Shown one piece after another: positions 1 through 64,000 of a DNA stretch of 64,000 nt (positions are counted from its first letter, which is position 1; every line of letters starts with the position of its first letter). Source of the DNA: Amphiscolops sp. MND2022. Lineage: Eukaryota. A program made the position numbers and the translations under genes. The notes under the pieces are model-generated. The model ran no database searches. It was not told the DNA's origin and saw only the letters and a list, made by a program, of their open reading frames with translations. The DNA lies in contig OZ076409.1 in assembly GCA_964187785.1 (NCBI GenBank), forward strand, positions 72,728,001 through 72,792,000, given 5' to 3'.

Positions 1-2712
1 TATTACATTAGGAACCGTGTTTTTTTTTTCACCAAAATCATGTTTTTGAGTGCCCAAAAACACTTTTTTAAAGCCCAGTAGCCACCTAAAATGTTCTTTT
101 GCATAACATGGGATGTGAATAACGTCAAGAAAGTGCTCACTATGGATTTGGAGTTATCTCGAAAAAATCAGCTGCCATTAGACGTTACATTACAGAAAAT
201 CGTACCTTACATATCGATACATGGGTTGAGTCAAAAACAGCTAAAGTTCTTTTTCAGTCAATCAATACTGTTTTTTGTTCACAACCAAGTGTACAGCTGA
301 CGTCGAACCTTTTTTGACCTTCCACAATGGTTATAATGCGATTTTGAGGGACAAAAGGCTTGTTGACAAACAAAATTCCAAGATGAAATTGCTTTCCAAA
401 TCATTTTTTGAAGTATAGGAACGCCATTTTTTGCCGACAACCATCAAATATCCACTTCTCTTGGCCCAGGGGCTTGTGAAAAATACAACTGAGCCTTGAC
501 AAGGCACATGGACCGTAATTCGAGTAGTCATGTACCACAACATTTGCTAATCGATAGCAACTTTTGTTGAAAATTGATACAACATCACATTTTTGGTGGA
601 CTCGAAATGACAAAATGGAGCTTTACCAGAAACTATTGGCTTTTAGTACAACTCACTGGCACTGTAAGTTACGAAAATACGGTTTACAGTAGTTTCATGC
701 TACTTTTTCAGAATCTGAGGTACATAAAAATATCATACTGAATAGACAAATAACTTCAACATCGGAATTTTTCCGGATGTGTCACCACCTTTTTGGTATC
801 AGCGGTCCTACCAACACTGCTTTTGGTCTAACACTAAACCCAAGGATCAACCAAGATGTATATCAGACTTGTAAAATCAATGCAAGGTCTTTCGACATGT
901 CAAAAGTACTGATAAGACGAGAATCTTCTCAAAAATTCATGTTATGTGTCATATTCCATTCCACGTTTATTAATCGGTGCTTGTCGGTTATAGTATTAAC
1001 GCTCAACAACGAGCTTACTGACACGAAACAACTTGTAGACAGTTATTAAAAGTATGTATAATTCCAACATGCTCGGTTTTGGCAGATTTTTCATCCCATT
1101 AGTTCTTAACGTGTAAATTTTACTTCCCAAAAACCCTATTTTTGTCAGGTCGAAATTCGAATTTTCGTGTTTTGATCAATATTATTGTGTCTGACGTAAC
1201 CTGTGGCCTCCAAAATACTCAAAAACAATAGTATGACTGCTATCAAATGCTTCAGTGACATGTGGGGCACGTTAACACGTTTTGGTAAGAAAAATTCCAC
1301 TTCGAAGTGAAAATTTGGAAGACACATTGTGTCAATAAAAACTGAATACATGCAAAACGTTCCTAACTCCCGTCAATTAGTATTGACGTAGTAACTGTGT
1401 TGCGAATTAGAGGTCTATAGAGTGGTGTATGGGAAAACTGTGGCGCATAAAGCGTTGTTCATAACAAAGTTCTTCCAATAACTACAATTGTGTTTTCAAA
1501 AGTTTCACTATATTTCACATATTCACAGAATGTGATTGATGCTACCTAGTAATGGAAAACCACTGTCGAATCTTCTTTAGTGGACTCAACAGTCCTGAAA
1601 ATCACAGACATACATCACGTTTCATAATTATACACTCGAGGCTACACAATAATTTATTTCCGCTAGTTGCTGATAACTGAATTTCCTGATAGCCTTCCAA
1701 GTTGGCCTTGTGTCAACCTGGGAAGGCTATCAGCACAAAACACAAAGAACACAGCTTGTTGTTGCCTCTAATTTGCTGTTGTTTTCGTTAAGATTTTATG
1801 GTACCGTTTCTTTATAACATGTGGTTAACATAAGACAATTTCTCTCTGTATGGAACGACATCCATTGATAAGAAAGATTACAGTTTTTTAGTTGAAAAAG
1901 ACCTTGAAACTACTGCGCAATTCATGCAATTTATCCAAAACGTTCATTCATTTCAATAATTTGCGTCCCATTGAGCGTCACAAACCACTATACCTCCTTT
2001 AACTGACAGTACAAAGACACATCATCCTTTGACCGTCCACAGAGCGAAGGCGTGGCGAGGCACGCCTTGCGAAGACCTTTGGCAAAACAGTACTAACGTC
2101 CGTTCGTGACGCATACGAAAAACTATTTTATTTTCAACAATCGTCATAAAGCATATTTGTTATATCGGCCTTTCGTTACATTTGTGCAATGATACCTTTA
2201 TCAGTGAAATATTAAGTTATACATAGGTAACTGCAGTAACTTCGTGATTACCAAAGTGATATCAAAATGTTGTTACATAAATATTTCTGACACAGCGGAA
2301 TTCCGAAGTGTCATTAGGCACTTTTTCAGTGCTCGTTAGGAAAGCGAGCACTTTTGCTTGGACCAAACAAGCTCGTATCAGACTGGTCATGTGAAGGCAA
2401 GTAACGGAATCGAAACAATGTTCCTCATCAACTTTTTGGTAGCGTCAGAAACACAATGTTTCCTTTTTAATGTCCCACAGTTGTTTGTTAGCTTCTGTTC
2501 ATAGAGAATTGTTTCTGCGCAGACCAAAATATAGCAAGTTATCCAATACGCCTGATAACGGATTTGCCCCACACAGAACTATCAGTTAACATTTTTGTAT
2601 GTTGATATCTTTTTACCCCGTTGTTCAACAACTCATGCACCTTCATTTCTTCTTCAACAACTAACTCGCCACCTCCTTGTCGTCTCGTGGTTTGTTTAGC
2701 CTCCAGCGCTAG
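1..2712 (+). repeat. Long cassette family L, 5' part outside the window
   Basis: Near-identical to 9489-12202 (offset ~9490); identity stops at the CTAG|GTG junction. Confidence 0.9.
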
Positions 2713-4905
2713 GTGGAGGTTATTTTATAATAATTAATGTGTTTTTTTCCGGAGTTTGTGGCTTTGGAAAAAACAAAAGGCGAGAAATCGTGCACTCCGG
2801 GCTGAACCGTATACACTCAAATTTCGCCCATTTTTTATACGATCTCGAAACCCAGCCGTACGATTTTGCTCAAAATTTGCATGCGGCTACAAAATCAGAT
2901 TCTAAGAACTATTTCCTGGTGACATTTTTTTGAAATTTTTGTGTACGTTTCCCCCCCGCCCCCTAAAGGGGTCACTTTTCCCCACTTTTGCACTTATGAG
3001 TCAAATTCTCAAACCTGGTGGATCTGAGCGTATTCCTGACGGGGACAACTTTTAACAAGCGCTCCTCAGTCGACCTTTTTGACTTTTTACTTTGGTGGTA
3101 CGTTCACCCCCCGAGGAGGAAATTGCGTTTTTGTGACTTCCGGTCGAGGCTTTTTTCACCCAAAAATTAGAATTAAGCCAGTTTTGAGCAGGAAGGAGTG
3201 GATTTAAAGTGCCTGTACCCTGCTAAAAATTTGTTGGGCTTGTAGCGATATATCTCATACCAAGTCTGGTTTTCACCCCCAAACCCCCCTTGAGACCAAA
3301 ATTCACCCAAAGTTTTTTACCTCTGTTTGTAGTTTTTTTACCGAATATCGTCATTTCCATGGGTACGGAGTTGAATTAGGGGCTCCTAATAGGGTACCGA
3401 TGTTCAAGTACACTTGCAGTGCAACTGAGTGACCCTTTTTGGGCCTCTCCTGTGTTCGGCAAGGACCGGAAGTGGTGTAACCCCCCCTTTTTTGACGTTT
3501 GTTGACCTTGAGACTCGCGCTTAGATGACGTTTATGTCGCGCAAATCCTACAAACAAGTATTAGGATGTCATGCTAGCCAACTAGAGAGCAGTAAGGGAA
3601 ACAATAATATATCGGAAGTAACCCCCCGTGACCGGAAGTTGTCATTTTTGACCGGAAATGGTCCAAAACCTAGCGTTAAAGCAGTTTTTCATTGCTTTTA
3701 AAGTCAACTTCTTACATTTTTCAATCTGCGCGAGCTTTTCTTCAGGTTCGTTTTTGTTGCCGGTGCACAGCAACGAATATACAACTGTAAAATTTTCGCT
3801 ATAAAATCGTCGGAGAGAGAAATAACGGAATATTTGGAGTTTTTTTCGAAAATATTAGTCTATATCTGTCATTTTTACCCAATGTTATTCAACAGTAGAA
3901 CCACAGATTTTATTCTCTGCCCAAAAATATGCCTAACAAATTCACCTGTCCCTTTGGTTGCAGTTTGAGCATTCTAGCTTTTTCTGGTCACAAGTAAGGG
4001 GACTTGAAAAAGTTTCAAAAACTTTTCCGAAAAATTTTTCTAAACGTCATGTCTCCCAAAGTTAAGAAACTTCCGCACAACTAGGATTACAAGTGAATGC
4101 ACGTGGTAAGACCTCTAATTGGAGAGAAAAATTCAGTTTAGAACGTCTCTTTATCGTAACGTGACGTTAAGAGAAGTTGCTTTGAATGCGAGCTTGATGA
4201 GACGTCGAGAAGTAACAGTGTGTAAATGGAACCTATGTCTCGACAAATACTCATCGGAATACATGAGATGAACCCCAATTACCCTCAATTTCAGTTGCCT
4301 AGTACAACAACGTCTTCCAAGGACCCTTTAATCTTTTTGATAAGCGTTGAAGTCATCAATAGATTGAGTTCGCAAGAAACAATTGAGTACATTCTCATCT
4401 CTCCCCATCGGGTGAGATGAGAATGTTTTTGCTGAAAGCCAGGTACTACGGCCCAATTTTGTTTCATTGCGACGCATTCTGTGCTTTAGCACATAGATAC
4501 TTTTATTCCGTCTCACTTTTTGTATACACTCTGATTTGTTGTTATGAATTTCTCGTCATTACTTTACATAAACTAATTACCATAAAACTTTAACGTCAAA
4601 GCCACATTCATTTAGACACCCACCATTCCGTAGGTATGCCGAGGTATGCCATTCGAAGATGTAGGTCAAACGCAAATGCGATAAAAATAGTGCTGAAAAT
4701 CGGAAACAGTGACAAACAATTTTGACTTTTTGATATTTGTTAGGTTTTCATATGGAACTTACACATCACTGACAATTCAAAACATTCCAGCTGACGCTCA
4801 CATACAAACATCAACGCCCACCGTCTGTGGGCATGCCGAGGCATGCCCTTCGACGACGTATAGCAAATTCCTTTAATATCTACACCCAATTGCGGTAGCT
4901 GCTAG
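2713..4905 (+). repeat. Cassette family B (2193 bp)
   Basis: Homologous to 29770-31960. Type I internal hairpin ~4385-4427, degenerate end box ~4632, canonical end box ~4828. Confidence 0.9.
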
Positions 4906-6193
4906 GTGGCCGGAAATTTTTTTTTTCATCAAAATCTTTGCCATTGGGGGAGGGGCCCCGGATGGCCAGTAGTACGGGATAGCTTCCTACCAAATCCAGG
5001 CGGAAAAAACGTGATTTTGGAAACTAGCCGTCAGAATTTGCTCAAATTTTGCATACGGCTTCCTATGACAATCCTAAGAACTAATCCCTACTGGCATTTT
5101 GCCCAAAAAACGCAAAAAGTTGGTCAAAATCTTAGTTTTTTGGTCAAAAAATGGCGTTTTTTCGAAAAAATTTTTTTTCAGAGACAATTACTCGTAACTG
5201 GGTCACCCAGCGCAAAAACGCCTAGCTGATTTATTGTTGGGCACTTCATGAGGAGTGCGTATACAAATTTTCGTCCAGATCGGAAAAAAAATGACTAAGT
5301 ATTAGACGGAATTCGGACTCATTTTTTCGCAAATTTTTGAAAACCTAGTCTATCTTTGCCGTTTTTTGCCCAGATTTTTTTCCAGGTCCTCTCCTAAAGG
5401 CCTCCCCTGGCCGGTTTACTTCCCAGAAAAACCAATTGGCCCTAAATACGGAGTTTCAGCGTTCTAGCATTCCCGGGCGAAAAGATGTGGGACTTAGAAA
5501 AAATTCAAAATTTTTCAAAAAATTTTTTTTTCGTTTTCCGGCCCCCCAATGAAGGGGAACGACCCCCCAACGAGGATTTTTGGTGAATTCACGTGGAAAG
5601 GCCTTGTTTTGTGGAGAAAATTGCCGTTTAGAGCGACTTTTTATCTTAACTTGACGTTGACCTCTGTCGTTTTGAATTTGATATTAGTATGTGTTGAGCA
5701 TGTGAAAAGTTGATGATTTCAGTTGTTCTCTCGTGTTCAAGCCATTGAGATACAAGCGGTAGTGATCAAAATGTGATTTATCGCAATTTGGTGGTGCTTT
5801 TGGTGTATTTTGATTCTTTTAAATAAAAAGTTGTTCTTTATATATTTGGTGTATTGATTCAAATTAACAAGAAACAGTTGAGTACATTTCATCTCCCCCC
5901 TTGTGGGGGAGATGAGGATGTACCCGCTAAATGACACGCACAATGGCCCACTTTTACTTTTATGCGACGTTTTCTAGGCTTTTGCGCAAGCCCACTAATA
6001 TTTAGACTGGTTTCCTTTTCTTTTACTCCAAAATTTTCCGTACTAACCACCTTACGCACCACCAGCTCAACGTAACATCCGTAACGTCAACGCCACACAC
6101 TCTCACTAACGCCCACCGTCCGTGGGCATGCCGAGGCATGCCCTTCGACGACGTATGCCAAATAGCGCCACAGGGCGCAAACTTGTCCGCTAG
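4906..6193 (+). repeat. Cassette family A (1288 bp)
   Basis: Near-identical copies start at 31961, 34637, 39171, 44797, 50446 and 59599. Confidence 0.92.
6095..6160 (+). other. Conserved subterminal end box (example): CAACGCCCACCGTCYGT-GGGCATGCC-GA-GGCATGCCC-TTCGACGACGTA
   Basis: Perfect 9-bp inverted repeat at 6124-6143. I count 33 intact copies, typically ~45-60 bp upstream of a cassette end. Confidence 0.9.
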
Positions 6194-7467
6194 GTGGCCG
6201 GGAACTTTTTTTCCTGCATTTTTCTGTCCAATTGGGGGAGGGGCCCCAAGTGGCTGTTATCCGGTTTTACTACCTACCCTAAACACGCTCAAAAAATGAC
6301 GATCTCGAAAACCACCCCTTAGATTTTCCTGAAACTTTGCATACAGGCCTAGAATCAAATCCTAAGAACTATTTCCTACTGGCGTTTTTCCGAATTTTTT
6401 CAAAAAGTTGGTCAAAAATGCAACAAAAGTTGCCAATGGACATAAAAAACGCAACTTTTCGACTTTGAGGGCCCATAACTTTTTTCAGAGTGCCCGGAGC
6501 GATTCGCACAATAACCACAATATTGCTCAGCATTGTCGGAGGAGTGCGTGGACGAAGTTTGGGGTCAATCGAATGAAAATTGATTGAGAAATAAACGCAA
6601 ATGTTCGTGCATTTGTTGCAAACACCAGTCTATCTCTGCCATTTTCGCCAAAAATTTTTCCCAGAGCCTTTATAGGAGGCAACCCCTGCCCAAATTTCTG
6701 CCGAGCAAACCCATTTGGCCCTAAATACGGAGTTTCAGCATTCTAGGATTCCCGGGCGAAAAGTTGTGGGACTTAGAAAAATTTCAAAAAAACGCAAAAA
6801 TTGTAAAAAGTAATTTAGGCGCCCCAAAGTCTCAAAACTTCCACACAACTAGTATTGCAAGTGAATGCATGTGGAAAGCACTTGAATAGACAAGAAATAT
6901 GAGCTATAGAACGACTCTGTAGCTTAATCTGACGTTGACTTATAACATTTTGAGTGTGAGCATCCTATAGGATTTTAATGTCAAAAATGAGATTTTGTAA
7001 GTCATGTCTCATCAAAAACTCATCGGAATACGTTCAATCATCCCCATAGCTGTTCAATCACCGTTGCTTAGTAGAGCAACGCCATTTAATGTCTTTGGAC
7101 CCATTTTGAAAATTTTCCTTACCGTCTTATTCGTCCGATATCACGAAACAATTGAGTACATTCCATCTCCCCCCTTGTGGGGGAGATGAGAATGTACTCG
7201 CCAAAGACCTGAAACAATGGCCCATATTGGTTTTTATTTGACTTTTCTCACAATATTGCACACGGATAGCTGTGTTTGGTAAAAGTTTTCCTTTGCACCA
7301 TGTCTCCAGAAGCAAAACCACTTCTTTAGCTTACTACTTCCACTCAAACATCACTAACGTCAACGCCACATACTCGCATCAACGCCCACCGTCTGTGGGC
7401 ATGCCGAGGCATGCCCTTCGACGACGTATGCCAAATAGCGCCGAAGGGCGCCCCCAATTTCCGCTAG
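6194..7467 (+). repeat. Short cassette, variant C (1274 bp)
   Basis: GTG head, core motif, type I hairpin 7154-7199, end box, CTAG. Confidence 0.88.
7154..7199 (+). other. Type I internal hairpin (example): GAGTACATTCCATCTCCCC-loop-GGGGAGATGAGAATGTACTC
   Basis: One per short or B cassette (25 counted), ~200 bp upstream of the end-box position. Confidence 0.88.
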
Positions 7468-10400
7468 GTGGTTGGGGCGTTATTCCCCACGAAGTTCGCG
7501 GCCGCGGGAGACGGGACCCGCGGACCGCCCATCCAATGCAAAAATATACACTCTAAACAGCACCATTATAAACACGATCTCGAAAATGAACCGTAGGATT
7601 GTCTTGAAATTTTGCATACGGATAGAAGCAAAAATTCTAAGAACTTTTTCCTGCTGGCACTTTTCCGAAAAAAACGTCCTTCATGGGTTTTTTTGGGTTT
7701 TTTTGGTTTTTTCTCATCTTTCTCATCTTTGATTAATCAATCACCGAATCAAATGCCATTTTCAGCATGAAGGAATGCACGTAGCGGCAAAGTGCACTTT
7801 TACAAAAATCATCAACGGTCAACGGTCTTTCGAACGGTCTAAAAAAATTTCCCCCCGGGGGCATGCAAAGTGCCGAAAAGTGCCAAAATATTTTTTTGGT
7901 CTGAATCATTTTGATGAAATTGTTGATTTGAGCAGCAGGAACGGTCCGCACGGTCTCGGACCATAAGGTCAAAAATTGTCAGTGAGTTATGGTGACGTCC
8001 AAAATGACATTGGTTGAGCTGTAGGAGGCCTATGAAAAAATTTGAATTTTTTGAGTCTACAATCCGAGCTGAACTGTTACGTATTATGAACTTTTCAGTA
8101 CTATGTTGCCAAAGACCGAGTACAGATAGGTGCATGGGTCAGCCTTATTGAAATGAACATTGGGCACTGGGCTAACGATTGAGTGCAAAAATTATAGCCT
8201 AGTTGCTGTAGTCGAAGAAAAAAATTCTCAGAAGTGTTACTTTCAATTTGTCATGTTGACTCGGAGTTACAAAAAGATGATTTTCTCGCCAACAACGGTC
8301 CGAACGGTCTTGGACCATAAGATCAAAAATTGTCAGTGTGCTATGGTGACGCCCAAAAACCCATCGGAACAAGCGTAGGATGCTTCTGAAAAAATTTCGA
8401 ATTTTTACCTCGGCCCAAGAGTTATTGTGTTACATCGTAACAACATTTCGTGTATGCATATCTCCTGACAGCGTACAGATAGCATCATGGGTCACCTTTT
8501 TGAAAGTGAACGTGGGCCACTGGTGTACTGCATGGTTATAAAAAATTTAGACTAAGTGCTGCATGGCGTGAATAATATGCCAAGATGTGGTATTTACGAT
8601 ATTTTAGCACGACTCGGACTGACAAAAAGCCTATTTCTGCCCCAGCAACGGTCCAAACGGTCATCAAGTATAAGGTCAAAAAATGTCAGTGTGACATTAT
8701 GGCGCCTAAAAACCTACCAGAATAATCGTAGGAAGCTTCTGAAAAAATTTTGAATTTTTACGTGGGCCCGAGAGTTATGATGTTGCATCGTAGCAACATT
8801 TCGGGTATGCATATCTCCCTACAGAGTACAGATAGCATCATGGGTCACCTTTTCGAAAAAGAACGTGGGCCACTGGTCTATCGATTGGTTGTAAAAAGTT
8901 TTCAATCACTGCTGCACGGCGTGAATAAAATGCCAATATGGGATATTTAGCATTTTTTTGCACGACTCGGACCTACAAAAGTCCCATTTCTGCTCCACCA
9001 ACGGTCCGTACGGTCTTCAACCATAAGGTCAAAAAGTGTCAGTGTGCTATGGTGACGCCCAAAAACCCAACAGTACACTTGTAGAGTGCTTCCGAAAACT
9101 TTTGGAATTTTTAGGTGAGTCCGAGAGTTATAGAGAGTTATGTTGTCACATGGTAACTACATTTCGGGAATGTATATCTCCTGACACAGTACAGATACCA
9201 ACATGGGTCATCTTTTGGAAAGTGAACGTGGGCCACTGGCCTACCGAATGGTGATAAAAAGTTTTCACCAGTTGCTACAGGGAGTGATAAAAGTGCTTAC
9301 ATAGTTTACATAGCATTTTTTCAGGCGACTCGGACTTACAAAAAGCTCATTTGCTAGCGAACAACGGTCTGTACGGTCTCCACTCAATGGGTCGAAAATT
9401 TTTTGTGGGCTATGGTGACGCTCAAAAACCCATCAGTTTACTTGTGGGATGATTCTATAAAAATTTAGTGTTTTCGTGCAGACTATGTTACATATTACAT
9501 TAGGAACCGTGTTTTTTCCTCACCAAAATCATGTTTTTGAGTGCCCAAAAGCAATTTTTAAAGCCCAGTAGCCACCTAAAATGTTCTTTTGCATAACATG
9601 GGATGTGAATAACGTCAAGAAAGTGCTCACTATGGATTTGGAGTTATCTCGAAAAAATCAGCTGCCATTAGACGTTACATTACAGAAAATCGTACCTTAC
9701 ATATCGATTCATGGGTTGAGTCAAAAACAGCTAAAGTTCTTTTTCAGTCAATCAATACTGTTTTTTGTTCACAACCAAGTGTACAGCTGACTTCGAAGCT
9801 ATTTTGACCTTCCACAATGGTTATAATGCGATTTTGAGGGACAAAAGGCTTGTTGACAAACAAAATTCCAAGATGAAATTGCTTTCCAAATCATTTTTTG
9901 AAGTATAGGAACGCCATTTTTTGCCGACAACCATCAAATATCCACTTCTCTTGGCCCAGGGGCTTGTGAAAAATACAACTGAGCCTTGACAAGGCACATG
10001 GACCGTAATTCGAGTAGTCATGTACCACAACATTTGCTAATCGATAGCAACTTTTGTTGAAAATTGATACAACATCACATTTTTGGTGAACTCGAAATGA
10101 CAAAATGGAGCTTTACCAGAAACTATTGGCTTTTAGTACAACTCACTGGCACTGTAAGTTACGAAAATACGGTTTACAGTAGTTTCATGCTACTTTTTCA
10201 GAATCTGAGGTACATAAAAATATCATACTGAATAGACAAATAACTTCAACATCGGAATTTTTCCGGATGTGTCACCACCTTTTTGGTATCAGCGGTCCTA
10301 CCAACACTGCTTTTGGTCTAACACTAAACCCAAGGATCAACCAAGATGTATATCAGACTTGTAAAATCAATGCAAGGTCTTTCGACATGTCAAAAGTACT

Positions 10401-12202
10401 GATAAGATGAGAATCTTCTCAAAAATTCATGTTATGTGTCATATTCCATTCCACGTTTTTTAATCGGTGCTTGTCGGTTATAGTATTAACGCTCAACAAC
10501 GAGCTTACTGACAAGAAACAACTTGTTAACAGTTATTAAAAGTATGTATAATTCCACCATGCTCGGTCTTGGCAGATTTTTCATCCCATTAGTTCTTAAC
10601 GTGTAAATTTTACTTCCCAAAAACCCTATTTTTGTCAGGTCGAAATTCGAATTTTCGTGTTTTGATCAATATTATTGTGTCTGACGTAACCTGTGGCCTC
10701 CAAAATACTCAAAAACAATAGTATGACTGCTATCAAATGCTTCAGTGACATGTGGGGCACGTTAACACGTTTTGGTAAGAAAAATTCCACTTCGAAGTGA
10801 AAATTTGGAAGACACATTGTGTCAATAAAAACTGAATACATGAAAAACGTACCTAACTCCCGTCAATTAGTATTGACGTAGTAACTGTGTTGCGAATTAG
10901 AGGTCTATAGAGTGGTGTATGGGAAAACTGTGGCGCATAAAGCGTTGTTCATAACAAAGTTCTTCCAATAACTACAATTGTGTTTTCAAAAGTTTCACTA
11001 TATTTCACATATTCACAGAATGTGATTGATGCTACCTAGTAATGGAAAACCACTGTCGAATGTTCTTTAGTGGACTCAACAGTCCTGAAAATCACAGACA
11101 TACATCACGATTCATAATTATACACTCGAGGCTACACAGTAATTTATTTCCGCTAGTTGCTGATAACTGAATTTCCTGATAGCCTTCCAAGTTGGCCTTG
11201 TGTCAACCTGGGAAGGCTATCAGTACAAAACACAAAGAACACAGCTTGTTGTTGCCTCTAATTTGCTGTTGTTTTCGTTAAGATTTTATGGTACCGTTTC
11301 TTTATAACATGTGGTTAACATAAGACAATTTCTCTCTGTATGGAACGACATCCATTGATAAGAAAGATTACAGTTTTTTAGTTGAAAAAGACCTTGAAAC
11401 TACTGCGCAATCCATGCAATTTATCCAAAACGTTCATTCATTTCAATAATTTGCGTCCCATTGAGCGTCACAAACCACTATACCTCCTTTAACTGACAGT
11501 ACAAAGACACATCATCCTTTGACCGTCCACAGACCGAAGGCGTGGCGAGGCACGCCTTGCGAAGACCTTTGGCAAAACAGTACTAACGTCCGTTCGTGAC
11601 GCATACGAAAAACTATTTTATTTTCAACAATCGTCATAAAGCATATTTGTTATATCGGCCTTTCGTTACATTTGTGCAATGATACCTTTATCAGTGAAAT
11701 ATTAAGTTATACATAGGTAACTGCAGTAACTTCGTGATAACCAAAGTGATATCAAAATGTTGTTACATAAATATTTCTGACACAGCGGAATTCCGAAGTG
11801 TCATTAGGCACTTTTTCAGTGCTCGTTAGGAAAGCGAGCACTTTTGCTTGGACCAAACATGCTCGTATCAGACTGGTCATGTGAAGGCAAGTAACGGAAT
11901 CGAAACAATGTTCCTCATCAACTTTTTGGTAGCGTCAGAAACACAATGTTTCCTTTTTAATGTCCCCCAGTTGTTTGTTAGCTTCTGTTCATAGAGAATT
12001 GTTTCTGCGCAGACCAAAATATAGCAAGTTATCCAATACGCCTAATAACGGATTTGCCCCACACAGAACTATCACTTAACATTTTTGTATGTTGACATCT
12101 TTTTACCCCGTTGTTCAACAACTCATGCACCTTCATTTCTTCTTCAACAACTAACTCGCCACCTCCTTGTCGTCTCGTGGTTTGTTTAGCCTCCAGCGCT
12201 AG
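7468..12202 (+). repeat. Long cassette family L (4735 bp)
   Basis: Colinear with 17156-21871. Internal ~354-bp repeats, type II hairpin 11178-11221, degenerate end box 11537-11558. Confidence 0.9.
7940..9490 (+). repeat. Internal ~354-bp tandem repeat in L cassette
   Basis: AACGGTCCG.ACGGTCT..ACCATAAGGTCAAAA-like unit starts at ~7940, 8294, 8647, 9000, 9363. Confidence 0.85.
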
Positions 12203-16114: not shown

Positions 16115-16155
16115 GATAGCCTTCCAAGTTGGCCTTCGGCCAACTTGGAAGGCTA
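16115..16155 (+). other. Type II internal hairpin (example): TAGCCTTCCAAGTTGGCC-TTC-GGCCAACTTGGAAGGCTA
   Basis: Perfect 18-bp inverted repeat here. Variants at 1688, 11178, 20866, 29187, 34286, 37436, 44336, 49985, 57889, 59248, 63509. Confidence 0.88.
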
Positions 16156-44288: not shown

Positions 44289-44307
44289 GCGTTAACGCGT
44301 TATAAAT

Positions 44308-54700: not shown

Positions 54701-56821
54701 TTCTAACGGTCCAGCTTATCTTTGCCATTTTTTCGAAAATGTACTCGCCTAAAGGCCTCCCCCTGGCCGAATTTACTCCCAGCAAAACCATTTGGCCCTA
54801 AATACGGAGTTTCAGCGTTCCAGCATTCCCGGGCGAAAAGTTGTGGGACTTGGAAAAATTCAAAAATTTTCAAAAAAATTTTTTTTTCGTTTTCCGGGTC
54901 CCCAATGAAGGGGAAACGACCCCCCAACCAGTATTTTGAGTGAATTCATGTGGAAAGCCCTTGTTTTGACGAGAAAAATACCGTTTAGAACATCTTTTTA
55001 TCTTGACTCAACGTTGACTTATGACGTTTTGAATGTGATGTAAGGATGTAGGAGGCATGTGATAAGTTGATGTTTTGAGTCTTTATCTCATATGAAAGCG
55101 GTTGAGATGCAAGCTGTCCTGCTCAAAACGTCTTTCGTTGTAATTTTCCAGTGCACCAATACCCTTTGGTGTCATATAAACATACTTTTTGTCGATATAT
55201 TAACATTTTTAATGTATTTATTCCAATTTTTATTATCTTATAACTCAAAACAGTTGAGTACATTTCATCTCCCTTTCGGGGGAGATGAGAATGTACTCGC
55301 TAAAGACCTAGCGCCATGACCAAAAGTTTGAAACCCACGTTTTTTATCTTCTTACAGACTTGTTTTTGTATTTTTTCGGAATTTTTTAAAAATTAATATA
55401 CTTGAAATACATTACTTGACTTTACTACTACAACCCACCTCCAACGACAACGCCCCCCTGCTTGCATCAACGCCCACCGTCCGTGGGCATGCCGAGGCAT
55501 GCCCTTCGACGACGTATGCCAAATGCCCAGTGCCACGCAGTCATTATCGCTAGGTGGCCGTGTCTTTTCGACGTGCTTTTGCATTGAGGAGTGGGTAGGG
55601 CCCCGCGACGACCTAGAAGAATTGGATGCTCACCGAAACGTGCAGAATTCTACGAGATCTCATAGTTTGAGCCATACGATTTTGCTGAAATTTGGCATGT
55701 GGCCTGGAATTGGTGAGTAGGTAAAACGTGTAGGAGGTGATTTTTCCCAAATTCCACTGTGAGACGAGATATGGGCAAATAACGGACCCAAAAATGGCAA
55801 AAATGCACTTTTTTCAACTTTGTCAGCCCATATCTCGTTCCCAGGTGCCCGGAGCGGGACGCGTTAAGCTGATTATAAACTCTCGGGTGTTGAGGCTGTA
55901 CGGGGAAGTCAGGCTCGTTCCGATCGGACTTGTAGTCTTGGAGAAATAACGGTATTTTTGGGGAACCTTTTCTAACGGTCCAGCTTATCTTTGCCATTTT
56001 TTCGAAAATGTACTCGCCTAAAGGCCTCCCCCTGGCCGAATTTACTCCCAGCAAAACCATTTGGCCCTAAATACGGAGTTTCAGCGTTCCAGCATTCCCG
56101 GGCGAAAAGTTGTGGGACTTGGAAAATTTTGAAAAATTTTCAAAAATTTTTTTTTCGTTTTCCGGGCCCCCAATGAAGGGGAAACGACCCCCCAACCAGT
56201 ATTTTGAGTGAATTCATGTGGAAAGCCCTTGTTTTGACGAGAAAAATACCGTTTAAAACATCTTTTTATTCTGACTCAACGTTGACTTATGACGTTTTGA
56301 ATGTGATGTAAGGATGTAGGAGGCATGTGATAAGTTGATGTTTTGAGTCTTTATCTCATATGAAAGCGGTTGAGATGCAAGCTGTCCTGCTCAAAACGTC
56401 TTTCGTTGTAATTTTCCAGTGCACCAATACCCTTTGGTGTCATATAAACATACTTTTTGTCGATATATTAACAATTTTAATGTATTTATTCCAATTTTTA
56501 TTATCTTATAACTCAAAACAGTTGAGTACATTTCATCTCCCTTTCGGGGGAGATGAGAATGTACTCGCTAAAGACCTAGCGCCATGACCAAAAGTTTGAA
56601 ACCCACGTTTTTTATCTTCTTACAGACTTGTTTTTGTATTTTTTTGGAATTTTTTAAAAATTAATATACTTGAAATACATTACTTGACTTTACTACTACA
56701 ACCCACCTCCAACGACAACGCCCCCCTGCTTGCATCAACGCCCACCGTCCGTGGGCATGCCGAGGCATGCCCTTCGACGACGTATGCCAAATGCCCAGTG
56801 CCACGCAGTCATTATCGCTAG
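51733..56821 (+). repeat. Four tandem family-F short cassettes (51733-53014, 53015-54284, 54285-55553, 55554-56821)
   Basis: Shared head GTGGCCGTGTCTTTTCGACGTGC. The last three are near-identical (1270, 1269, 1268 bp); the first has a different body. Confidence 0.92.
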
Positions 56822-58211
56822 GTGGTCGGGTATTTTTTTTTACTCGTAGATGGCGTTTGCGAGGCTTTGGGGAGGGCCCCGTGCCGAGCCTGTACCGAAA
56901 TTTACCACATACCAGAAGTGTCCGATTTAATCGAGATCTCAAAAACTAACCGTTAGAATTCTCTGAAATTTTGCATGTGGCCCCTAATCAATGAGTAATG
57001 AAAAAGTGTAGGAGTGACGGTTGCTGAAAAACTTGTCTTTGTTGCACTTTTTGCGCAATTTTTGTCGCATTGTTGCGTTTTTTATGTCATTTTCGACTTT
57101 TCAAGCAAAAAACTCATAGATGCTTTGTTCCTAGCGTATCAAGTGTGGAGCACGAAAAGTTGCAGCATCTTCCATTACGTATGCTGAGAAAATTTGGTTG
57201 CCCTCGGATTACCCCCCACAGAGATAGAGGGGTGCATCCGGGTATTTTTGACTCCTAAATTTGGGAAATTGCTAATTTTCGTAATAAAGCTGTAGATTTA
57301 GCGCGTGCACACCCTGCTGAAGATTTGTTAGGCATTTTGAGATAGATCCGATGACATGCGTTGAGTTCACCCCCATCACCTCCTTGACCGGAAATGAACG
57401 TTTTTGTGCACTTTCAGACCGGAAGTCTCCATTTTCACCGGTAAGGAGGCATTGTACGAGCAACTAGCAGGATATCAAAAGTGAAGTATAGCCTGGGGTC
57501 AACCTAATGACCACGTGTTGTCCAGTCATGGGTTTCGCTATGACCGGAAATGGGCTTAAAACCCCCTTTTGGTAGTATTTTTATCAATTTTCCTTGTGCT
57601 TGGTCCACATTCAAGTTGCGTAAGTCAGTTGAACCAGTGAGAGCATAAAATATATATTCACTGCGTAGTCGTAACTGACACTGCCAGATACCGGAAGTAA
57701 CCCCCTGTGACCGGAAGAGGTCAATTTTGACCGGAAATGGTCCAAAAAGTAGCGTAAATGCAGTTTTCAATGCTTTTCAAGGTCAAGTTATTAGTATTTT
57801 TCAATTTGAAAGCTATTTTCCACGCAAAAAGCTAACATCGTTGCATGTTTTGCTGAAAATCGGAAAAGTGATCACCATTATCACCCCCGATAGCCTTTCA
57901 AGTTGACCTTTGGTCAATCTTGAAGGCTATCTGTCCTGAAAACGAAAAATAGTGGAATTTTGTTTCCTCCTTTCTCTTGATATTTTTCCTTCAAGTCAAT
58001 TTGTCAAAAGAAAGACATTTGTTCAACTGAGTGATCTGAAACCTGTCCAGAGGTGTCACCCGGACGAATACCATTTCAAGCTGAAGTACACAAATCAGGG
58101 TAGTATTAGACATCACACACTCCTACCAACTACCACCGTCTGTGGGCATGCCGAGGCATGCCCTTCGACGACGTATGCCAAATAGCGCTACAGGGCGCCC
58201 ACATTTGCTAG
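56822..58211 (+). repeat. Divergent H-like cassette (1390 bp)
   Basis: Type II hairpin 57889-57931; ACCGGAAGTAACCCCC block shared with families B and H. Confidence 0.83.
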
Positions 58212-59598
58212 GTGGTTGGGGCGGTCCCCAGAACGCACAAGGAGGCGCGGGGAGGGTCCTGCGCCGACGTAGAATAATTTCATAAAATACTAGTATCCTA
58301 CATGGGTGATTTAGAGGCGATTTTGGAATCTAACCGTACGATTTGGATAATTTTTTGCATGCGGCCATAACTCGAAATTCTAAGAACTTTTTCTCACTGT
58401 CATTTTCCCCGCAAATTGTTTTTTGTTGACTTATGGCCGAAAAACCGGAAATAACGTCCTTTTTAAACGTTATATCCGAAGTGTTGTCATAACTTTTTTC
58501 CAGGGCATGCTAGCGTTCCCGTTCACTTTTACACTTAGTTGCAGCATCTCAAAATACAACTGGTGGAAAATTTTGGTTGCATTCGGATCACCCCCCACCG
58601 AGATAGAAGGGTTCCCCCCTCCAGTTTTACCCCCCAAAATTGAGAAAATACCAATTTTGAGCATGAAGCCGTGGATTTAGCGAATCCTTACCCCCCTATT
58701 GTTTTGTCGGACGTATTAGGGTCAATCTGGCGACATGTGTGGTTTTCACCCCCAACCCCCCCTGGGACCGGAAATGACATTTTTTGTGTTTTTTGACAAA
58801 AATTAGCCTTTTTGATTAGTTGGCAGTCGTTTTTGGGCCTCCTAGCAGGATATCGAAGTTGAAATACAACTTGATCACAACCCAGTGACAACATGTTGGC
58901 CAGTTGCAGGTACCATCATGACCGGAAGTGGGGTCAAACCCCCTTTTTGTGACCGCTTTTTGACCTTGTGCACCAAAATGCCAACAACTTGAGGCCTAAT
59001 GACGCATTCAAATCTGTACAAAGATAGAACGTTAGACAACGGAAGTCCCGGAAGCTCTTTAGCATATACCGGAAGTCACCCCCCATGACCGGAAGTTGTC
59101 CAATGTGACCGGAAATGGTCCAAAAATTCATGTAAAATTAATTTTTTCACTTATTGAATACCACTTCGTTGAACATTTTCAATCCCAAAACTAGCGTACT
59201 AGCTGGTGGCGTTGAATTTATGGAAATTGAGGAGCTTTATCACCCCCGATAGCCTTCGAAGTTGACCTTGCGTCAACTTTGGAGGCTATCGATTCTGAAA
59301 ATGAACAACAAAGTATTTTGTTGCTCTCGTTTTTTTCCGTTTTTTTCCTCAAATATTGTTGAGACATACACATGGCCGTTAGTTAAAATCAATATTTTAG
59401 CCCATGTTATAGCGTGAGTAGCGAAGCGTTACACAGGCTGGTGTGGTTTTGAACTATAATTATTTTAAAATAAAAAAAGACCATCTTAGTCAACTCCACA
59501 CATTCATACCAACGCCCACCGTCTGTGGGCATGCCGAGGCATGCCCTTCGACGACGTATGACGAATCCACTCCAACGACACCCGCAGTCCTCAGCTAG
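58212..59598 (+). repeat. Cassette family H (1387 bp)
   Basis: Homologous to 33249-34636. Confidence 0.9.
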
Positions 59599-60885
59599 GT
59601 GGCCGGAAATTTTTTTTTCATCAAAATCTTTGCCATTGGGGGAGGGGCCCCGGATGGCCAGTAGTACGGGATAGCTTCCTACCAAATCCAGATGGAAAAA
59701 ACGTGATTTCGGAAACTAGCCGTCAGAATTTGCTCAAATTTTGCATACGGCTTCCTATAACAATCCTAAGAACTAATCCCTACTGGCATTTTGCCCAAAA
59801 AACGCAAAAAGTTGGTCAAAATCTTAGTTTTTTGGTCAAAAAATGGCGTTTTTTCGAAAAAAAAATTTTTCAGAGACAATTACTCGTAACTGGTTCACCC
59901 AGCGCAAAAACGCCTAGCTGATTTATTGTCGGGCACTTCATCAGGAGTACGTATACAAATTTTCGTCCAAATCGGATAAAAATTGATTGAGAAATAACTG
60001 AAAATTTGAGGCATTTTTTTGGAAATTTTTGAAATCCCAGTCTATCTCTGCCGTTTTTTGCCCAGATTTTTTTCCAGACACTTTCCTAAAGACCTCCCCT
60101 GGCCGGTTTACCTCCCAGCAAAACCATTTGGCCCTAAATACGGAGTTTCAGCGTTCTAGCATTCCCGGGCGAAAAGATGTAGGACTTAGAAAAAATTCAA
60201 AAATTTTCAAAATTTTTTTTTTGCGTTTCCTGGCCCCCCAATGAAGGGGAACGACCCCCCAACTAGGATTTTTGGTGAATCCATGTGAAAAGGCCTTGTT
60301 TAGTGGAGCAAATTGCCGTTCAGAGCGACTTTTTATCTTAACTTGACGTTGACCTCTGTCGTTTTGAATTTGATATCAGTATGTGTTGAGCATGTGAAAA
60401 GTTCACGATTTCAATTGTTCTCCCGTGTTCAAGCCATTGAGATACAAGCGGTAGTGATCAAAATGTGATTTATCGCAATTTGGTGGTGTTTTTGGTGTAT
60501 TTTGATTCTTTTAAATAAAAAGTTGTTCTTTCTATATTTGGTGTATTGATTCAAATTAACAAGAAACAGTTGAGTACATTTCATCTCCCCCCTTGTGGGG
60601 GAGATGAGGATGTACCCGCTAAATGACACGCACAATGGCCCAATTTTATTTTTATGCGACGTTTTCTAGGCTTTTGCGCAAGCCCACTAAAATTTAGACT
60701 GGTTTCCTTTTCTTTTACTCCAAAATTTTCCGTACTAACCACCTTACGCACCACCAGCTCAACGTAATATCTGTAACGTCAACGCCACATACTCGCATCA
60801 ACGCCCACCGTCCGTGGGCATGCCGAGGCATGCCCTTCGACGACGTATGCCAAATAGCGCCACAGGGCGCAAACTTGTCCGCTAG
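59599..60885 (+). repeat. Cassette family A with divergent central patch (1287 bp)
   Basis: A-like ends; ~59930-60340 carries variants typical of D-like and other short units. Confidence 0.88.
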
Positions 60886-61954
60886 GTGGTCAAGGGGGAT
60901 GCCCATCAGAAAATATTGCGAGGCCGGGGAGGGTCCCGAGAGCCGAGCACATTCTATCAATTCCTACCTTCAGGATTGCGAAGTATTTTAACCGATCTCG
61001 AAATTCACCCGTAGGATTTGTCTGAAACTTTGCATGTGGCTTCATCTTAAAAATTTAAGAATTTTTTTCTGCTGACGTTTTTCCAGGAAAATTCATTTTG
61101 TAGGGTTTTTTTGCGTTTTTTTGGTTTTTTTCATCTTTGTTCATCTTTGATTAATCAATGACCAAATCAAAGGCCATTTTCACCATGAAGGAAAGCCCGT
61201 AGCGGCAAAGTGCACTTTTATGAAAATCATCAACGGTCAACGGTCTTTCGAACGGTCCAAAAAAATTTCCCCCCGGGGGAAACCAAAGTGCCGAAAAGTG
61301 CCAAAATTATTTTTTGACTGAATCACTTTGATCAAATTGATGATTTGAGTAGCCGGAACGGTCCGCACGGTCTCGGACAATAAGGCCAAAAATTGTCAGC
61401 ATCCAATGGGGGTTCCAAAAATGTAATTCGTTCACCTGTAGGAGACATCAGAAAAAAGTTGATTTTTTGGGGTATATGTCATTATGAGTGATTGGATGAG
61501 AAATAATTGTATCACTTTCAGTTGGATATGATGCAGCACAGGAAGCAGCTGCAGCAAACTTGAAACTGATTATGGGGCTGGGGTTTACCCTCTGTATCGA
61601 GCAAAATAGCCCTAGGGCATAAGTTGTGCCAAAAAATGCCTCAAAGTGATGATTTGGTTATTCCAAATCGATCAGCAAAATTTATTGTCACCGGTGTTCC
61701 GAGAGTTGCGCAGCATCTCGCAGGAACAACGGTGCTTGCTTAGAAAGCAAAAAACCACAAAATCCCTTGAGTTAAGTTGACGGCAGTCACCATAGACATT
61801 CACACGTCAGGGTGATGATATTTATCGTTCAATCCCAGAATAACTTACAAAAAATTGCTAGCCTCAATATTTCTTTTTCATACTCCATTAGCAAAGGTTG
61901 CGCTGTTAAGTTTAGGCCTTTTACTAGCAGTGCTCTAAATCGCTCCATCGCTAG
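60886..61954 (+). repeat. Shortened L-related cassette with unique 3' half (1069 bp)
   Basis: ~61100-61400 matches L heads (7680-7980). No internal hairpin or end box seen; ends CGCTAG. Confidence 0.8.
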
Positions 61955-63969
61955 GTGGTCGGGGTTTTCTCCCCACCTTTATTTGCGAGCGCGGGAGACG
62001 GGTCCTGTCGCGAGCCTTAGATACCAAAAATAGCCTATCCGCGACCGGGTCAAAAAAATGCGATCTCGAAAACTAGCCGTACGATTTGGCTGAAATTTGG
62101 CACACGGCTTCCTATAACAATTCTAAGAAACATTTACTACTGACGTTTTGCTGGCAAAAATCGAAAAGTGGGTCAAAATAACGGTTTTTGGGGTAAAAAG
62201 TAGCGTTTTTTTGAAAATTTTGCATTTCACAGCCAATTACTCGGAAATGGTCGATCCAGCGCAGTAACGCCTTGCTGATTTATTGTTGGGCACGTCAAGA
62301 GGCGTACGTACACAAATTTTCGTCAAAATCGGACTGAAACTTGGGGAGATATTAACGGTAGTTTGGGGGTTTCAAACCGCTATTTTACAGGAAATTGCAC
62401 TTTTTGACCGGGAAGGAGTTGTCTGAGTGCGGGGTCGTCTGGTAATGTTTTGTAGAGCATCTGGGGACGTAGTGGGGGACATGTAATTTAATGACCCCGG
62501 TTAACCCCTCGGACGGGAAATGACCGTTATGTGGGTTTTAAATGTGGCCCCCGCCAATTTTCCCCGTTATTTCCGGTGTGAAGGAGTGGTAGTAGCGCGT
62601 CGGGTGCCTTATATCAAAAGTACGTTTAGACAAGGACCTATTGGAAACATGTGGTTTGAGACCCTTTGAACGGACCCGTTAGCCGCTAATGGGGTGACTG
62701 CCTCCTTTTTTTGGGGGTAATACCGTAAAACGGGCATTGAAGTGAAATTAACTCGTGAACGCGTGGAGCTATCGTGTCCTTCACTACTACAAGGTTTCAT
62801 ACCCATGATATGGTGCCTTCAGGGGGGCAACAGATTTCCGCTATCTATCACCGTTACGGACTTGGCCCCCCAGCCTAACCGCTATGTGACCGGAAATGTC
62901 ACTTTTTGAGCCCAAAGTGTCGGTCCCAGCGTGGCAACGTTAGGTAACATATTGTAGTACACATTGAGACGAGTCGGGGGATTTAGTTTCAGTCACACCC
63001 TGTTGGCCCGTTAGGTCGGAAATGACCGTTATGTAGTGAAAAATGGGATTTTTATAGTTTTTGAAGGCCATTTCGGGCAGGAAGGAGGGGTAATATGACT
63101 TTGGACACCATATGATGGAAGACGTGAAGTGTGACGAGCATTCCGGATTAACCGTTATGATGACCCGGAAGTCCCCCTGGCCCCGGAAATGACCAAAAAA
63201 ATGTAACATTTTGTGTTTTTTGATTAAAAATGTTTGTTATTTAACCGAATAAAGTACATGTTAGGTGTTTCAATTTCTTCCAGAGGTGAATATAGTCCAA
63301 TTACATGGTGGGGGGTAACGGTATATTGCCCCGGAAGTCCAACCCGTTGGGTCTGAGTATGTTTTTCGGGTTTTAAAATGTGTCAAAACGTACTTTTGTG
63401 TAATAAATCTCTTTTGTAGGCTAATAAGGACCATTTTTGAAGAGTTTAAATTTTTTCATAGTAGTTTGTGGAACACCAAAAACTTAAATAACATAACCGT
63501 TATAATATGATAGCCTTTCAAGTTGGCCTTGTGTCAACTTGGAAAGGCTATCCTTCAAGACTCATGCAACAAAGAAGTTTTTGGGTACATTTGTATTGCT
63601 TTAGTGTCAATTAGAGTATCAACAAGAGTATACCAAGCACTAAAATTATGTCTAGTTTTCGTTATTAGGATATTAGTTTCCTTAATATTTGTCGGAAATG
63701 CTTTTTTTAATCTCTTTTAATGTGGTCTAAATACTCTGAAAACACTTTATCGAACCAATTTTCTTGGATGAACCTTAGTAACAATACTAAAAATCGTAGA
63801 CAACCTTGCTTCGTTTAAATATTTGAAGCTGAAACCGCACCTTACCGTTGCTCAAACTTCAACCCGACGCCCCATAGCATACATCAACGCCCATCGTCTG
63901 TGGGCATGCCGAGGCATGCCCTTCGACGACGTATGCCAAATACCTTTAACCCGACGCCCGCAGTCCTGG
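61955..63969 (+). repeat. Chimeric cassette: short-type head plus family-G body (2015 bp)
   Basis: ~62060-62360 resembles A/E heads; from ~62375 it matches G repeats. Type II hairpin 63509-63552; ends CTGG. Confidence 0.85.
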
Positions 63970-64000
63970 GTGCCGGGATTTCTATTCGATAAAGTATGTG

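What the first reader, a model, noticed from the sequence alone, without database searches (positions are those of the whole stretch)
1688..63552. Two unrelated ~43-bp internal hairpins are mutually exclusive, one per cassette
Type I (GAGTACATT..AATGTACTC, 25 copies) occurs in short and B units; type II (GATAGCC..GGCTATC, 12 copies) occurs in L, G and H units. No cassette has both, and among complete cassettes only 60886-61954 appears to have neither. Both have ~18-20-bp arms, variable loops, and often a single unpaired base on the 3' arm. Both lie a few hundred bp upstream of the end box. Bulged DNA hairpins are the recognition features of integron attC sites and IS200/IS605 ends, so interchangeable functional modules are inferred. 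They could alternatively be pre-miRNA-like or transcription-related.
Basis: partly seen in the sequence, partly recalled or inferred. Interest (0 to 1): 0.7.

Follow-up and report, generated by a model that had tools for sequence, protein, structure and literature searches.

The report
Hairpins in chained rolling-circle-like DNA cassettes
This stretch of eukaryotic DNA is a one-way chain of gene-less mobile cassettes, all joined at the same short site and shuffled in order, and nearly every cassette carries one conserved 44-base hairpin of two kinds, probably a signal used when the cassette is copied as a single strand.

Summary
The hairpins are real: 25 type I and 12 type II copies, 43-46 nt, the strongest fold in their cassettes, 80-100% conserved within a type while adjacent flanks mostly fall near random identity. 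Exclusivity is not absolute. Of 35 complete cassettes, 23 have type I only, 9 type II only, 2 both (one duplicated fusion) and 1 neither (it has a third 46-nt hairpin). 'Unrelated' is unproven: the arms align in register (9/18 identical) but whole-hairpin identity is at chance level. Compensatory change is not above shuffles. They are not attC or IS200 end sites: they lie about 300-1040 nt from any junction and lack the paired attC core. The larger finding is the array. All 36 junctions read CTRG|GTG, 19 tail types meet 17 head types in 31 combinations, and heads carry a covarying hairpin with a fixed loop. The same layout occurs in a diverged metagenome contig. Best reading: non-autonomous Helitron-like rolling-circle elements that re-insert at their own junction, the hairpin being one slot of the right end. 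They fail the canonical Helitron1 (5'-TC) and Helitron2 (subterminal repeat) tests. No transposase, genome or RNA data were available.

The parts
1..64000 (+). Head-to-tail non-coding array: 35 complete cassettes (1069-4953 nt) plus two partial ones; runs off both window ends
   Evidence: longest ORF 156 aa
6190..6196 (+). Example junction CTRG|GTG; 36 such sites from 2709 to 63972, all on +
4912..4927 (+). Example head hairpin A (short stem of variable sequence just after GTG)
4940..4966 (+). Example head hairpin B: fixed loop KAGGGY, stem covaries between families; 34 motif matches on +, 33 at offset 38-48 of a head and 1 in a duplicated head
5035..5082 (+). Example conserved core motif about 105-200 nt into the cassettes (GATTT..AAATTTKGCA..CTAAGAA)
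6108..6156 (+). Example end box; central 20-nt hairpin 6124-6143 with G-C/A-T compensatory variants, starting 63-77 nt before the junction in most cassettes and about 660 nt before it in the 4.7-kb type
4385..4430 (+). Type I hairpin, degenerate, no bulge (2.19-kb chimeric cassette)
5880..5925 (+). Type I hairpin
7154..7199 (+). Type I hairpin
22840..22882 (+). Type I hairpin
24116..24158 (+). Type I hairpin
25390..25432 (+). Type I hairpin
26665..26707 (+). Type I hairpin; linkage to a different downstream spacer switches here
31443..31488 (+). Type I hairpin, degenerate, no bulge (2.19-kb chimeric cassette)
32935..32980 (+). Type I hairpin
35610..35655 (+). Type I hairpin
38857..38899 (+). 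Type I hairpin
40145..40190 (+). Type I hairpin
41421..41464 (+). Type I hairpin; 100% to 42704 in the 50 columns upstream, 52% downstream
42704..42747 (+). Type I hairpin
43997..44041 (+). Type I hairpin in fused cassette 43019-44796 (has both types)
45771..45816 (+). Type I hairpin
47061..47104 (+). Type I hairpin
48353..48396 (+). Type I hairpin
49646..49690 (+). Type I hairpin in fused cassette 48668-50445 (has both types)
51419..51464 (+). Type I hairpin
52714..52756 (+). Type I hairpin
53986..54028 (+). Type I hairpin
55256..55298 (+). Type I hairpin
56524..56566 (+). Type I hairpin
60572..60617 (+). Type I hairpin
1688..1731 (+). Type II hairpin (partial long cassette)
11178..11221 (+). 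Type II hairpin (4.7-kb cassette)
16115..16157 (+). Type II hairpin, no bulge, cassette without end box
20866..20909 (+). Type II hairpin (4.7-kb cassette)
29187..29229 (+). Type II hairpin, 2-nt bulge
34286..34328 (+). Type II hairpin, no bulge, two G-T pairs
37436..37479 (+). Type II hairpin
44336..44379 (+). Type II hairpin in fused cassette 43019-44796; fusion point about 44300-44305
49985..50028 (+). Type II hairpin in fused cassette 48668-50445
57889..57931 (+). Type II hairpin
59248..59290 (+). Type II hairpin, no bulge
63509..63552 (+). Type II hairpin
61689..61734 (+). Third, unrelated 46-nt imperfect hairpin in the cassette that lacks both types and the box
12203..12318 (+). Exact 58-nt duplication of a cassette head (two 5' termini)
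8258..9436 (+). Internal 353/363-bp satellite-like repeats of long cassettes (also 13423-14255, 17946-19114)

Best explanation
The window is a polar chain of non-autonomous rolling-circle (HUH, Helitron-like) elements, and the two hairpins are alternative sequence versions of one cis-acting slot in the elements' extended right end: hairpin, 230-510 nt spacer, box hairpin, short tail, CTRG. SHOWN: cassette boundaries at CTRG|GTG, precise shuffling there, a covarying head hairpin, conservation of the slot hairpin, about one hairpin per right end. INFERRED: a transposase supplied in trans nicks before GTG, peels the + strand, terminates after CTRG and closes a circle whose joint equals an array junction; because existing junctions equal the nick site, new copies are joined there, in one orientation and any order. 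INFERRED, weakest step: the 44-nt bulged hairpin folds on the displaced single strand and is bound there, most likely to prime the second strand (like the single-strand origin of rolling-circle plasmids) or to arm termination at the box. Exclusivity then follows from one slot per right end plus descent.
For: 36 + strand CTRGGTG sites against 4.4 (max 8) in a Markov null; 44 on both strands against 8.8 in shuffles. 31 distinct tail-head pairs; one tail type joins 7 head types and one head type follows 5 tail types, with no indel at any of 36 junctions: the shared stretch is too short for homologous exchange. All 36 ends are CTRR, the Helitron1 3' motif (PMC11417382, PMC4778049 passages). The head hairpin keeps its loop and swaps its stem, as in Helraiser, where stem exchange kept about 90% activity and loop change did not. 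A 58-nt duplicated 5' end parallels FoHeli copies repeating their first 31-85 nt. Internal satellites as in non-autonomous Helentrons. Slot hairpin 80-100% identical within type against mostly 40-65% in flanks; G-T pairs outnumber A-C 17 to 4 on +; loop length is free and the bulge position is kept in L001, which favours a folded single strand over a double-stranded dimer site. Same order of parts and a CGAG|GTG junction in metagenome contig L001. Run X1 has one head type behind a tail not paired with it in the window (one contig).
Against: No transposase, autonomous partner, solo copy or empty site could be seen (no genome held; 0 of 9 ORFs reach a Pfam cut-off). Heads start GTG, not TC (36 of 36); no 11-15-nt subterminal inverted repeat. 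The 20-nt box hairpin ends 43-57 nt before the end rather than 10-12, is about 640 nt away in the 4.7-kb type, and is absent from 2 of 35 cassettes. Arms are conserved in letters, not by compensation (13 of 18 type I pairs never vary; 96 of 500 shuffles reach the score), which fits a small-RNA precursor as well. Whole-hairpin folding favours + in only 11 of 18 variants. 2 of 25 type I and 4 of 12 type II copies lack a net bulge. No passage I read describes a single-strand origin in Helitrons. The constant GGTG could instead be a recombinase core.
Confidence: 0.45

Rival explanations
1. The hairpins are RNA: short-hairpin precursors of small RNAs (or RNA 3'-end/processing signals) carried by the cassettes and transcribed from the + strand, whatever moves the cassettes.
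For: Arms of 18-21 nt conserved in letters with a variable loop, the pattern typical of microRNA precursors (own knowledge); A-U / G-U / G-C series at one type II pair; G-T excess on +.
Against: 43-46 nt with a 3-5-nt loop and no extended basal stem is short for Drosha/Dicer processing (own knowledge); no Rfam family at gathering score and only chance-level hits at E up to 5 in 18 kb; no Pol III B box; fixed order with the box and the 230-251-nt spacing of type I suggest a DNA-level module.
Confidence: 0.2
2. The cassettes are substrates of a tyrosine recombinase (Crypton-like or integron-like) with GGTG as a 4-bp shared core; the hairpins are accessory recombinase sites.
For: GGTG is the only stretch constant in all 36 junctions and in L001; Cryptons have 4- or 6-bp terminal direct repeats and no terminal inverted repeats (PMC3212892 passages); a GTTRRRY lies at the 5' foot of 22 of 25 type I hairpins.
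Against: No inverted repeats flank the junction (mean best 6.2 of 12 pairs against null 6.7); 0 of 37 hairpins have the paired attC core, 0 of 12 type II have either half, 0 of 36 junctions have an attC core; L001 lacks the GTT at that place; the hairpins are not where the order is shuffled; the duplicated head places the boundary inside GGTG or before it.
Confidence: 0.13
3. The hairpins have no dedicated role: they are palindromes kept symmetric by self-repair and spread between families as crossover or template-switch points in a satellite-like array.
For: Pairwise identity breaks abruptly at the 3' edge of type I in several pairs (100% to 52%; 76% to 26%; 86% to 62% to 28%); the fusion of 43019-44796 lands about 31 nt before a type II hairpin.
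Against: Breaks also occur at the core, the mid-body block and the box; a single 44-nt island shared by three unalignable bodies and kept in a contig about 70% identical elsewhere needs selection; a recurrent one-sided bulge is not what self-repair produces.
Confidence: 0.12
4. The units are non-autonomous retroelements in a HeT-A/TART-like or ribozyme-bounded head-to-tail array, the hairpin being an RNA packaging or reverse-transcriptase recognition signal.
For: Single polarity and mixed family order; structured 5' end on the + strand.
Against: No poly(A) at junctions and no 5'-truncated unit among 36 heads; no ribozyme or tRNA-derived head found; no telomeric repeat runs.
Confidence: 0.06

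Closest known systems
Non-autonomous Helitron1 / HLE1 (Helraiser model; PMC4778049, PMC11417382)
   Same: CTRR 3' end, hairpin in the right end, no target duplication between units, junction identical to what a circle joint would be, loop-conserved and stem-variable terminal hairpin, alternative 3' ends.
   Different: 5' end is GTG, not TC; units join each other at RG|G, not host A|T; the main right-end hairpin is 43-57 nt from the end; an extra conserved 44-nt hairpin lies 300-1040 nt inside; many families are chained in one polar array.
Helitron2 / Helentron / HINE, including FoHeli and oyster Cg_HINE (PMC4067079, PMC5148889, PMC7492417)
   Same: Hairpins at both ends; a palindrome about 40-60 nt from the 3' end; a GCC-GA-GGC-type hairpin centre like FoHeli1's; duplicated 5' termini; internal satellite-like repeats; short blocks nearly identical between diverged families.
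   Different: No subterminal inverted repeat pair, no T-rich ends or T|T target; the 44-nt hairpin arm has no consistent third copy near either end.
Paramecium chromosome-end Helitrons (PMC13085455)
   Same: A Helitron class with non-canonical ends, uniform orientation, alternative right ends with compensatory stems, satellites inside.
   Different: Those end in CCAA and are flanked by telomeric repeats; here units abut directly and no telomeric repeat is present.
Integron cassette arrays with attC sites (PMC5027507)
   Same: Polar array of unlike cassettes shuffled at an exact point; bulged hairpins present.
   Different: No genes as cargo; the hairpin is not the crossover site; no paired RYYYAAC/GTTRRRY core; no integrase seen.
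Single-strand origins of rolling-circle plasmids (PMC5714925 for the role; structure from own knowledge)
   Same: Candidate role only: an internal signal on the displaced strand, separate from the nick site, used to make the second strand.
   Different: Not described for Helitrons in the passages read; no sequence relationship tested.
Replitrons (PMC10288648) and Cryptons (PMC3212892)
   Same: Short direct repeat at the termini (GGTG could be read so); Replitron-1 inserts after RG.
   Different: The Replitron passages read name plants, algae and protists and describe fuzzy ends; Crypton-type flanking inverted repeats are absent; no partner protein found for either.

Membership tests
Helitron1 (HLE1) | 3' end CTRR | tested here: met
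   32 CTAG and 4 CTGG of 36 junctions; L001 ends CGAG; the ends were defined by this motif, then confirmed by tail-head shuffling
Helitron1 (HLE1) | 5' end TC | tested here: not met
   36 of 36 heads start GTG
Helitron1 (HLE1) | Hairpin 10-12 nt before the 3' end | tested here: inconclusive
   A 5-bp hairpin 11 nt before CTAG in the commonest tail, not general; the conserved box hairpin ends 43-57 nt from the end
Helitron1 (HLE1) | Insertion between A and T of host DNA | not testable with these tools
   Array ends lie outside the window, no genome held; inside the array units meet at G|G
Helitron (any) | Ends shared with a RepHel-coding autonomous element | not testable with these tools
   No coding element in the window; no genome
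Helitron2 / Helentron / HINE | 11-17-nt subterminal inverted repeats | tested here: not met
   Longest inverted match between first 40 and last 110 nt was 7-8 nt in 14 of 16 cassettes, 10 and 11 in two, within the shuffled range 6-12
Helitron2 / Helentron / HINE | T-rich termini and T|T target | tested here: not met
   Termini GTG and CTRG
Helitron2 / Helentron / HINE | Stem-loops at both ends, internal tandem repeats | tested here: met
   internal repeats only in the long and 2-2.8-kb families
Integron attC | Paired RYYYAAC / GTTRRRY core at the hairpin base | tested here: not met
   0 of 37; one half only in 22 of 25 type I (definition)
Integron attC | Crossover inside the hairpin defines cassette ends | tested here: not met
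   Cassette order is shuffled about 300-1040 nt downstream
Integron attC | Extrahelical bases on one arm | tested here: inconclusive
   One extra 3' base in 31 of 37 copies; attC has two or three plus an unpaired spacer
IS200/IS605 ends | Imperfect hairpin next to the cleavage site (recalled) | tested here: not met
   Nearest downstream junction about 300 nt or more away
Crypton | 4-6-bp terminal direct repeat | tested here: inconclusive
   GGTG constant at all junctions, but no solo copy to show duplication
Crypton | 11-13-bp inverted repeats around a 6-8-bp core | tested here: not met
   35 junctions: mean best 6.2 of 12 pairs, null 6.7
microRNA precursor | Discrete processed reads from the arms | not testable with these tools
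   No RNA holder listed
microRNA precursor | Match to a known family | tested here: not met
   Rfam gathering 0 hits in 64 kb; only sub-threshold hits in 18 kb

The most novel reading that the evidence does not exclude
A eukaryotic cassette-array system: a HUH-type (or other site-specific) enzyme uses the elements' own CTRG|GTG joint as its only target, building and reordering a polar chain of gene-less cassettes like an integron, and each cassette must carry one of several interchangeable 44-46-nt bulged hairpins (second-strand origin or small-RNA precursor) that is the selected payload. This would be an undescribed class of rolling-circle element with G-starting left ends.
Probability: 0.2. 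Interest if true: 0.85.

Novelty: new variant of a known kind. Interest (0 to 1): 0.58.

Why it matters
Helitron-like elements are described as scattered insertions at A|T or T|T, or as tandem runs of one truncated element. A chain of many families joined base-exactly at their own ends points to self-targeted joining and to termini that structure-based Helitron finders, which look for TC or terminal inverted repeats, would miss. How the single-stranded circle becomes double-stranded is left open in the Helraiser model ('possibly converted'); a conserved internal hairpin of swappable types is a direct candidate to delete and swap. If instead the arms make small RNAs, the array would be a new kind of small-RNA locus. 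Ten literature searches listed no such array, but the library is open-access only and Repbase/Dfam were not searchable.

Tried and rejected
Whole genome: none held. Rfam, tRNA/tmRNA: blank. Pfam on 9 of the 38 ORFs of 90 aa or more: one sub-threshold DUF hit. Codon-phase bias between four cassette pairs: none, p 0.53-1.0, so no coding fossil. Box and hairpin patterns in viral contigs and prokaryote genomes: 0 hits except L002, a match inside a phage ORF that does not fold and has no other similarity, dropped as chance. Phage BLAST blank. Sequencing runs: no RNA holder listed; one run with share 0.06, laid as contigs only. Joint pair count on the mixed type I + II alignment used a mis-registered structure and is discarded; it was redone per type. 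Homology of the two types: weak signal, not accepted. Spliceosomal-intron or recursive-splice reading (GT...AG): 4 of 36 ends are GG and the heads lack a donor consensus. Group II intron (GUGYG start, bulged last domain): only one head type fits and the bulged hairpin is far from the end. LTR/TRIM, MITE, Transib, Sola, Academ: no terminal repeats or target duplications. Telomeric array: no repeat runs. Earlier scan notes: none by place or sequence; four word hits concern other genomes and were not used. No supplementary files were read; terminal-sequence tables there could hold a G-starting Helitron family that I did not see.
Full report
SETTING. The window is 41% G+C, has no ORF above 156 aa, no tRNA or Rfam hit and no CpG depletion (ratio 0.97). 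Its motifs are absent from prokaryote genomes and, but for one chance match, from viral contigs. I infer a eukaryote, probably an invertebrate animal; this is not shown. No genome is held.

THE ARRAY. CTRGGTG occurs 36 times on the + strand against 4.4 in a Markov null. Cutting between CTRG and GTG gives 35 complete cassettes of 1069-4953 nt in about five body families. Heads read GTG, a short hairpin A, then hairpin B whose loop KAGGGY is fixed while the stem changes completely between families. The loop motif matches 34 times on +: at offset 38-48 in 33 heads and once in a duplicated head; the two 2.19-kb cassettes have a different hairpin there. All 19 distinct hairpin B variants fold better on + as RNA and 17 of 19 as DNA, partly a consequence of G-richness. 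A core motif follows at about 105-200 nt; its likeness to the internal cores of DINE/Helitron non-autonomous elements is recalled, not tested. Most cassettes end with a box holding a 20-nt hairpin with G-C/A-T compensatory variants, then a family-specific tail and CTRG. Clustering gives 19 tail and 17 head types in 31 combinations; the commonest tail meets 7 heads, the commonest head 5 tails, with no indel at any junction. Crossovers in the box or core would carry tail and head together, so this needs cutting and joining inside the 4-7-nt junction. That is the strongest inference here.

THE OBSERVATION. Counts, lengths and positions hold. Of 35 complete cassettes 23 have type I only, 9 type II only, 2 both and 1 neither. 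The two with both are fusions of a short unit lacking the last bases of its tail to the final 490 nt of a 2-kb unit, about 31 nt before type II; they are copies of one event and each hairpin has its own box. The cassette with neither has a third 46-nt hairpin 266 nt from its end; in 20 kb of null sequence no 50-nt window reached -24 kcal/mol against 8 in real sequence, and this one scores -23.9, so it is borderline. 'About one long hairpin per right end' fits better than 'mutually exclusive'. Exceptions to a strict hairpin-box pairing: two chimeric 2.19-kb cassettes have one degenerate type I and two boxes, and the cassette at 12203-17155 has type II and no box.

CONSERVATION. In 44-nt blocks, hairpin identity within a type is 0.80-0.93 for 21 type II pairs and 0.82-1.0 for 28 type I pairs, while flanks are mostly 0.40-0.65 (higher between close relatives) against a null of 0.48 +/- 0.06. 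Type II is the only block in that region shared by the long, the 1.39-kb and the 2-2.8-kb families. The single metagenome hit L001 has the same order of parts, about 70% mid-body identity, an unalignable spacer, a type I hairpin at 0.70-0.82, one compensated pair, the bulge at the same place with another letter, and a CGAG|GTG junction followed by a normal head. In run X1, 17 contigs were laid; one shows the head at 35924 behind a tail it does not follow in the window. These are one contig each.

STRUCTURE OR SEQUENCE. What favours a folded strand is the free loop length, the one-sided extra base (23 of 25 and 8 of 12 copies) and 17 G-T against 4 A-C pairs on + over 19 related, non-independent variants; total folding energy favours + in only 11 of 18. 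The two types share length, slot, and 9 of 18 letters in register (p about 0.017), but overall identity is at null level: homology is undecided.

MECHANISM. CTRR ends, hairpins at both termini, a loop-fixed and stem-free hairpin, a duplicated 5' end, alternative 3' ends and internal satellites all match rolling-circle elements. In Helraiser the circle joint is right end to left end; here every array junction has that form. If the enzyme's target equals its nick site, copies will be added at existing junctions in one orientation, which explains polarity, precision and mixing. The 44-nt hairpin is too far from the junction to be the end signal, but lies on the strand that would be displaced. By analogy with rolling-circle plasmids, where second-strand synthesis starts at a separate single-strand origin, I put second-strand priming or arming of termination first. 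I give the element class about 0.6 and the full statement 0.45. Identity profiles also break at type I, at the core, the mid-body block and the box, so these islands serve as crossover points that build mosaics.

COMPARISON. It works most like a non-autonomous Helitron but is not filed as Helitron1 (no TC) or Helitron2/HINE (no subterminal repeats). attC and IS200 tests fail on position and core; a GTTRRRY at the foot of 22 of 25 type I copies is noted but has no partner. Crypton-type flanking repeats are absent. Described Helitron tandems are runs of one truncated element with many 5' and one 3' end (PMC12628747).

PAPERS. Passages only: PMC4067079, PMC10288648, PMC12628747, PMC3212892, PMC4778049, PMC11417382, PMC5148889, PMC7492417, PMC5714925, PMC5027507. 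Passages and section 14: PMC13085455. All others were seen as search listings only. No supplements were read.

VERDICT. Observation partly confirmed; interpretation partly supported. The hairpins are a selected internal slot of unknown role; the exactly joined, shuffled array is the more surprising feature. New variant of a known kind, interest 0.58; most novel reading 0.2 likely, 0.85 if true.

Noticed in passing
window cassette bodies, e.g. 4906-5865 and 9468-10967: Strong 10-10.5-bp periodicity of AA/TT (autocorrelation peaks at 10, 20, 31, 41, 52), as in bent or nucleosome-positioning DNA. Two long cassettes differ by 270 mismatches but only 2 indels over 1.5 kb, without codon bias.
   Followed up: partly
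window junctions, e.g. 6187-6200: The joined tail and head (CCGCTAGGTGGC in the commonest types) resemble the CTCF-binding consensus (recalled, not tested); the motif exists only once two cassettes are joined.
   Followed up: no
window 12203-12318: Exact 58-nt duplication of a head ending just after hairpin B and creating a CCGG|GTG pseudo-junction; like the multiple 5' termini of FoHeli.
   Followed up: partly
window 41728-50445 and 51733-56821: Higher-order duplication with 5649-nt spacing (cassettes at 41728 and 47377 are 100% identical) and a run of four same-head cassettes: segmental amplification acts alongside junction shuffling.
   Followed up: partly
window 2713-4905 and 29770-31960: 2.19-kb chimeras: 5' half like the 1.39-kb type II family, 3' half like the short type I family, with a degenerate type I hairpin and box followed by an intact box.
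   Followed up: partly
window 11545-12202: In the long cassettes the box variant lies about 660 nt before the end and a CTAA follows it at about the usual tail distance, suggesting an old end bypassed with capture of about 600 nt.
   Followed up: no
window 5930-6100 and equivalents: The roughly 200-nt spacer between type I and the box is the most divergent part of the short cassettes (mean identity down to 0.34) yet nearly constant in length.
   Followed up: partly
window head hairpin B, box loop and junction: AGG preceded by T, G or C-G recurs in the hairpin B loop, the box loop and the junction; in L001 the junction itself reads CGAG|G like the box loop.
   Followed up: no
L002 1-6308: Ordinary phage early-gene block; its match to the type II pattern is chance.
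   Followed up: yes
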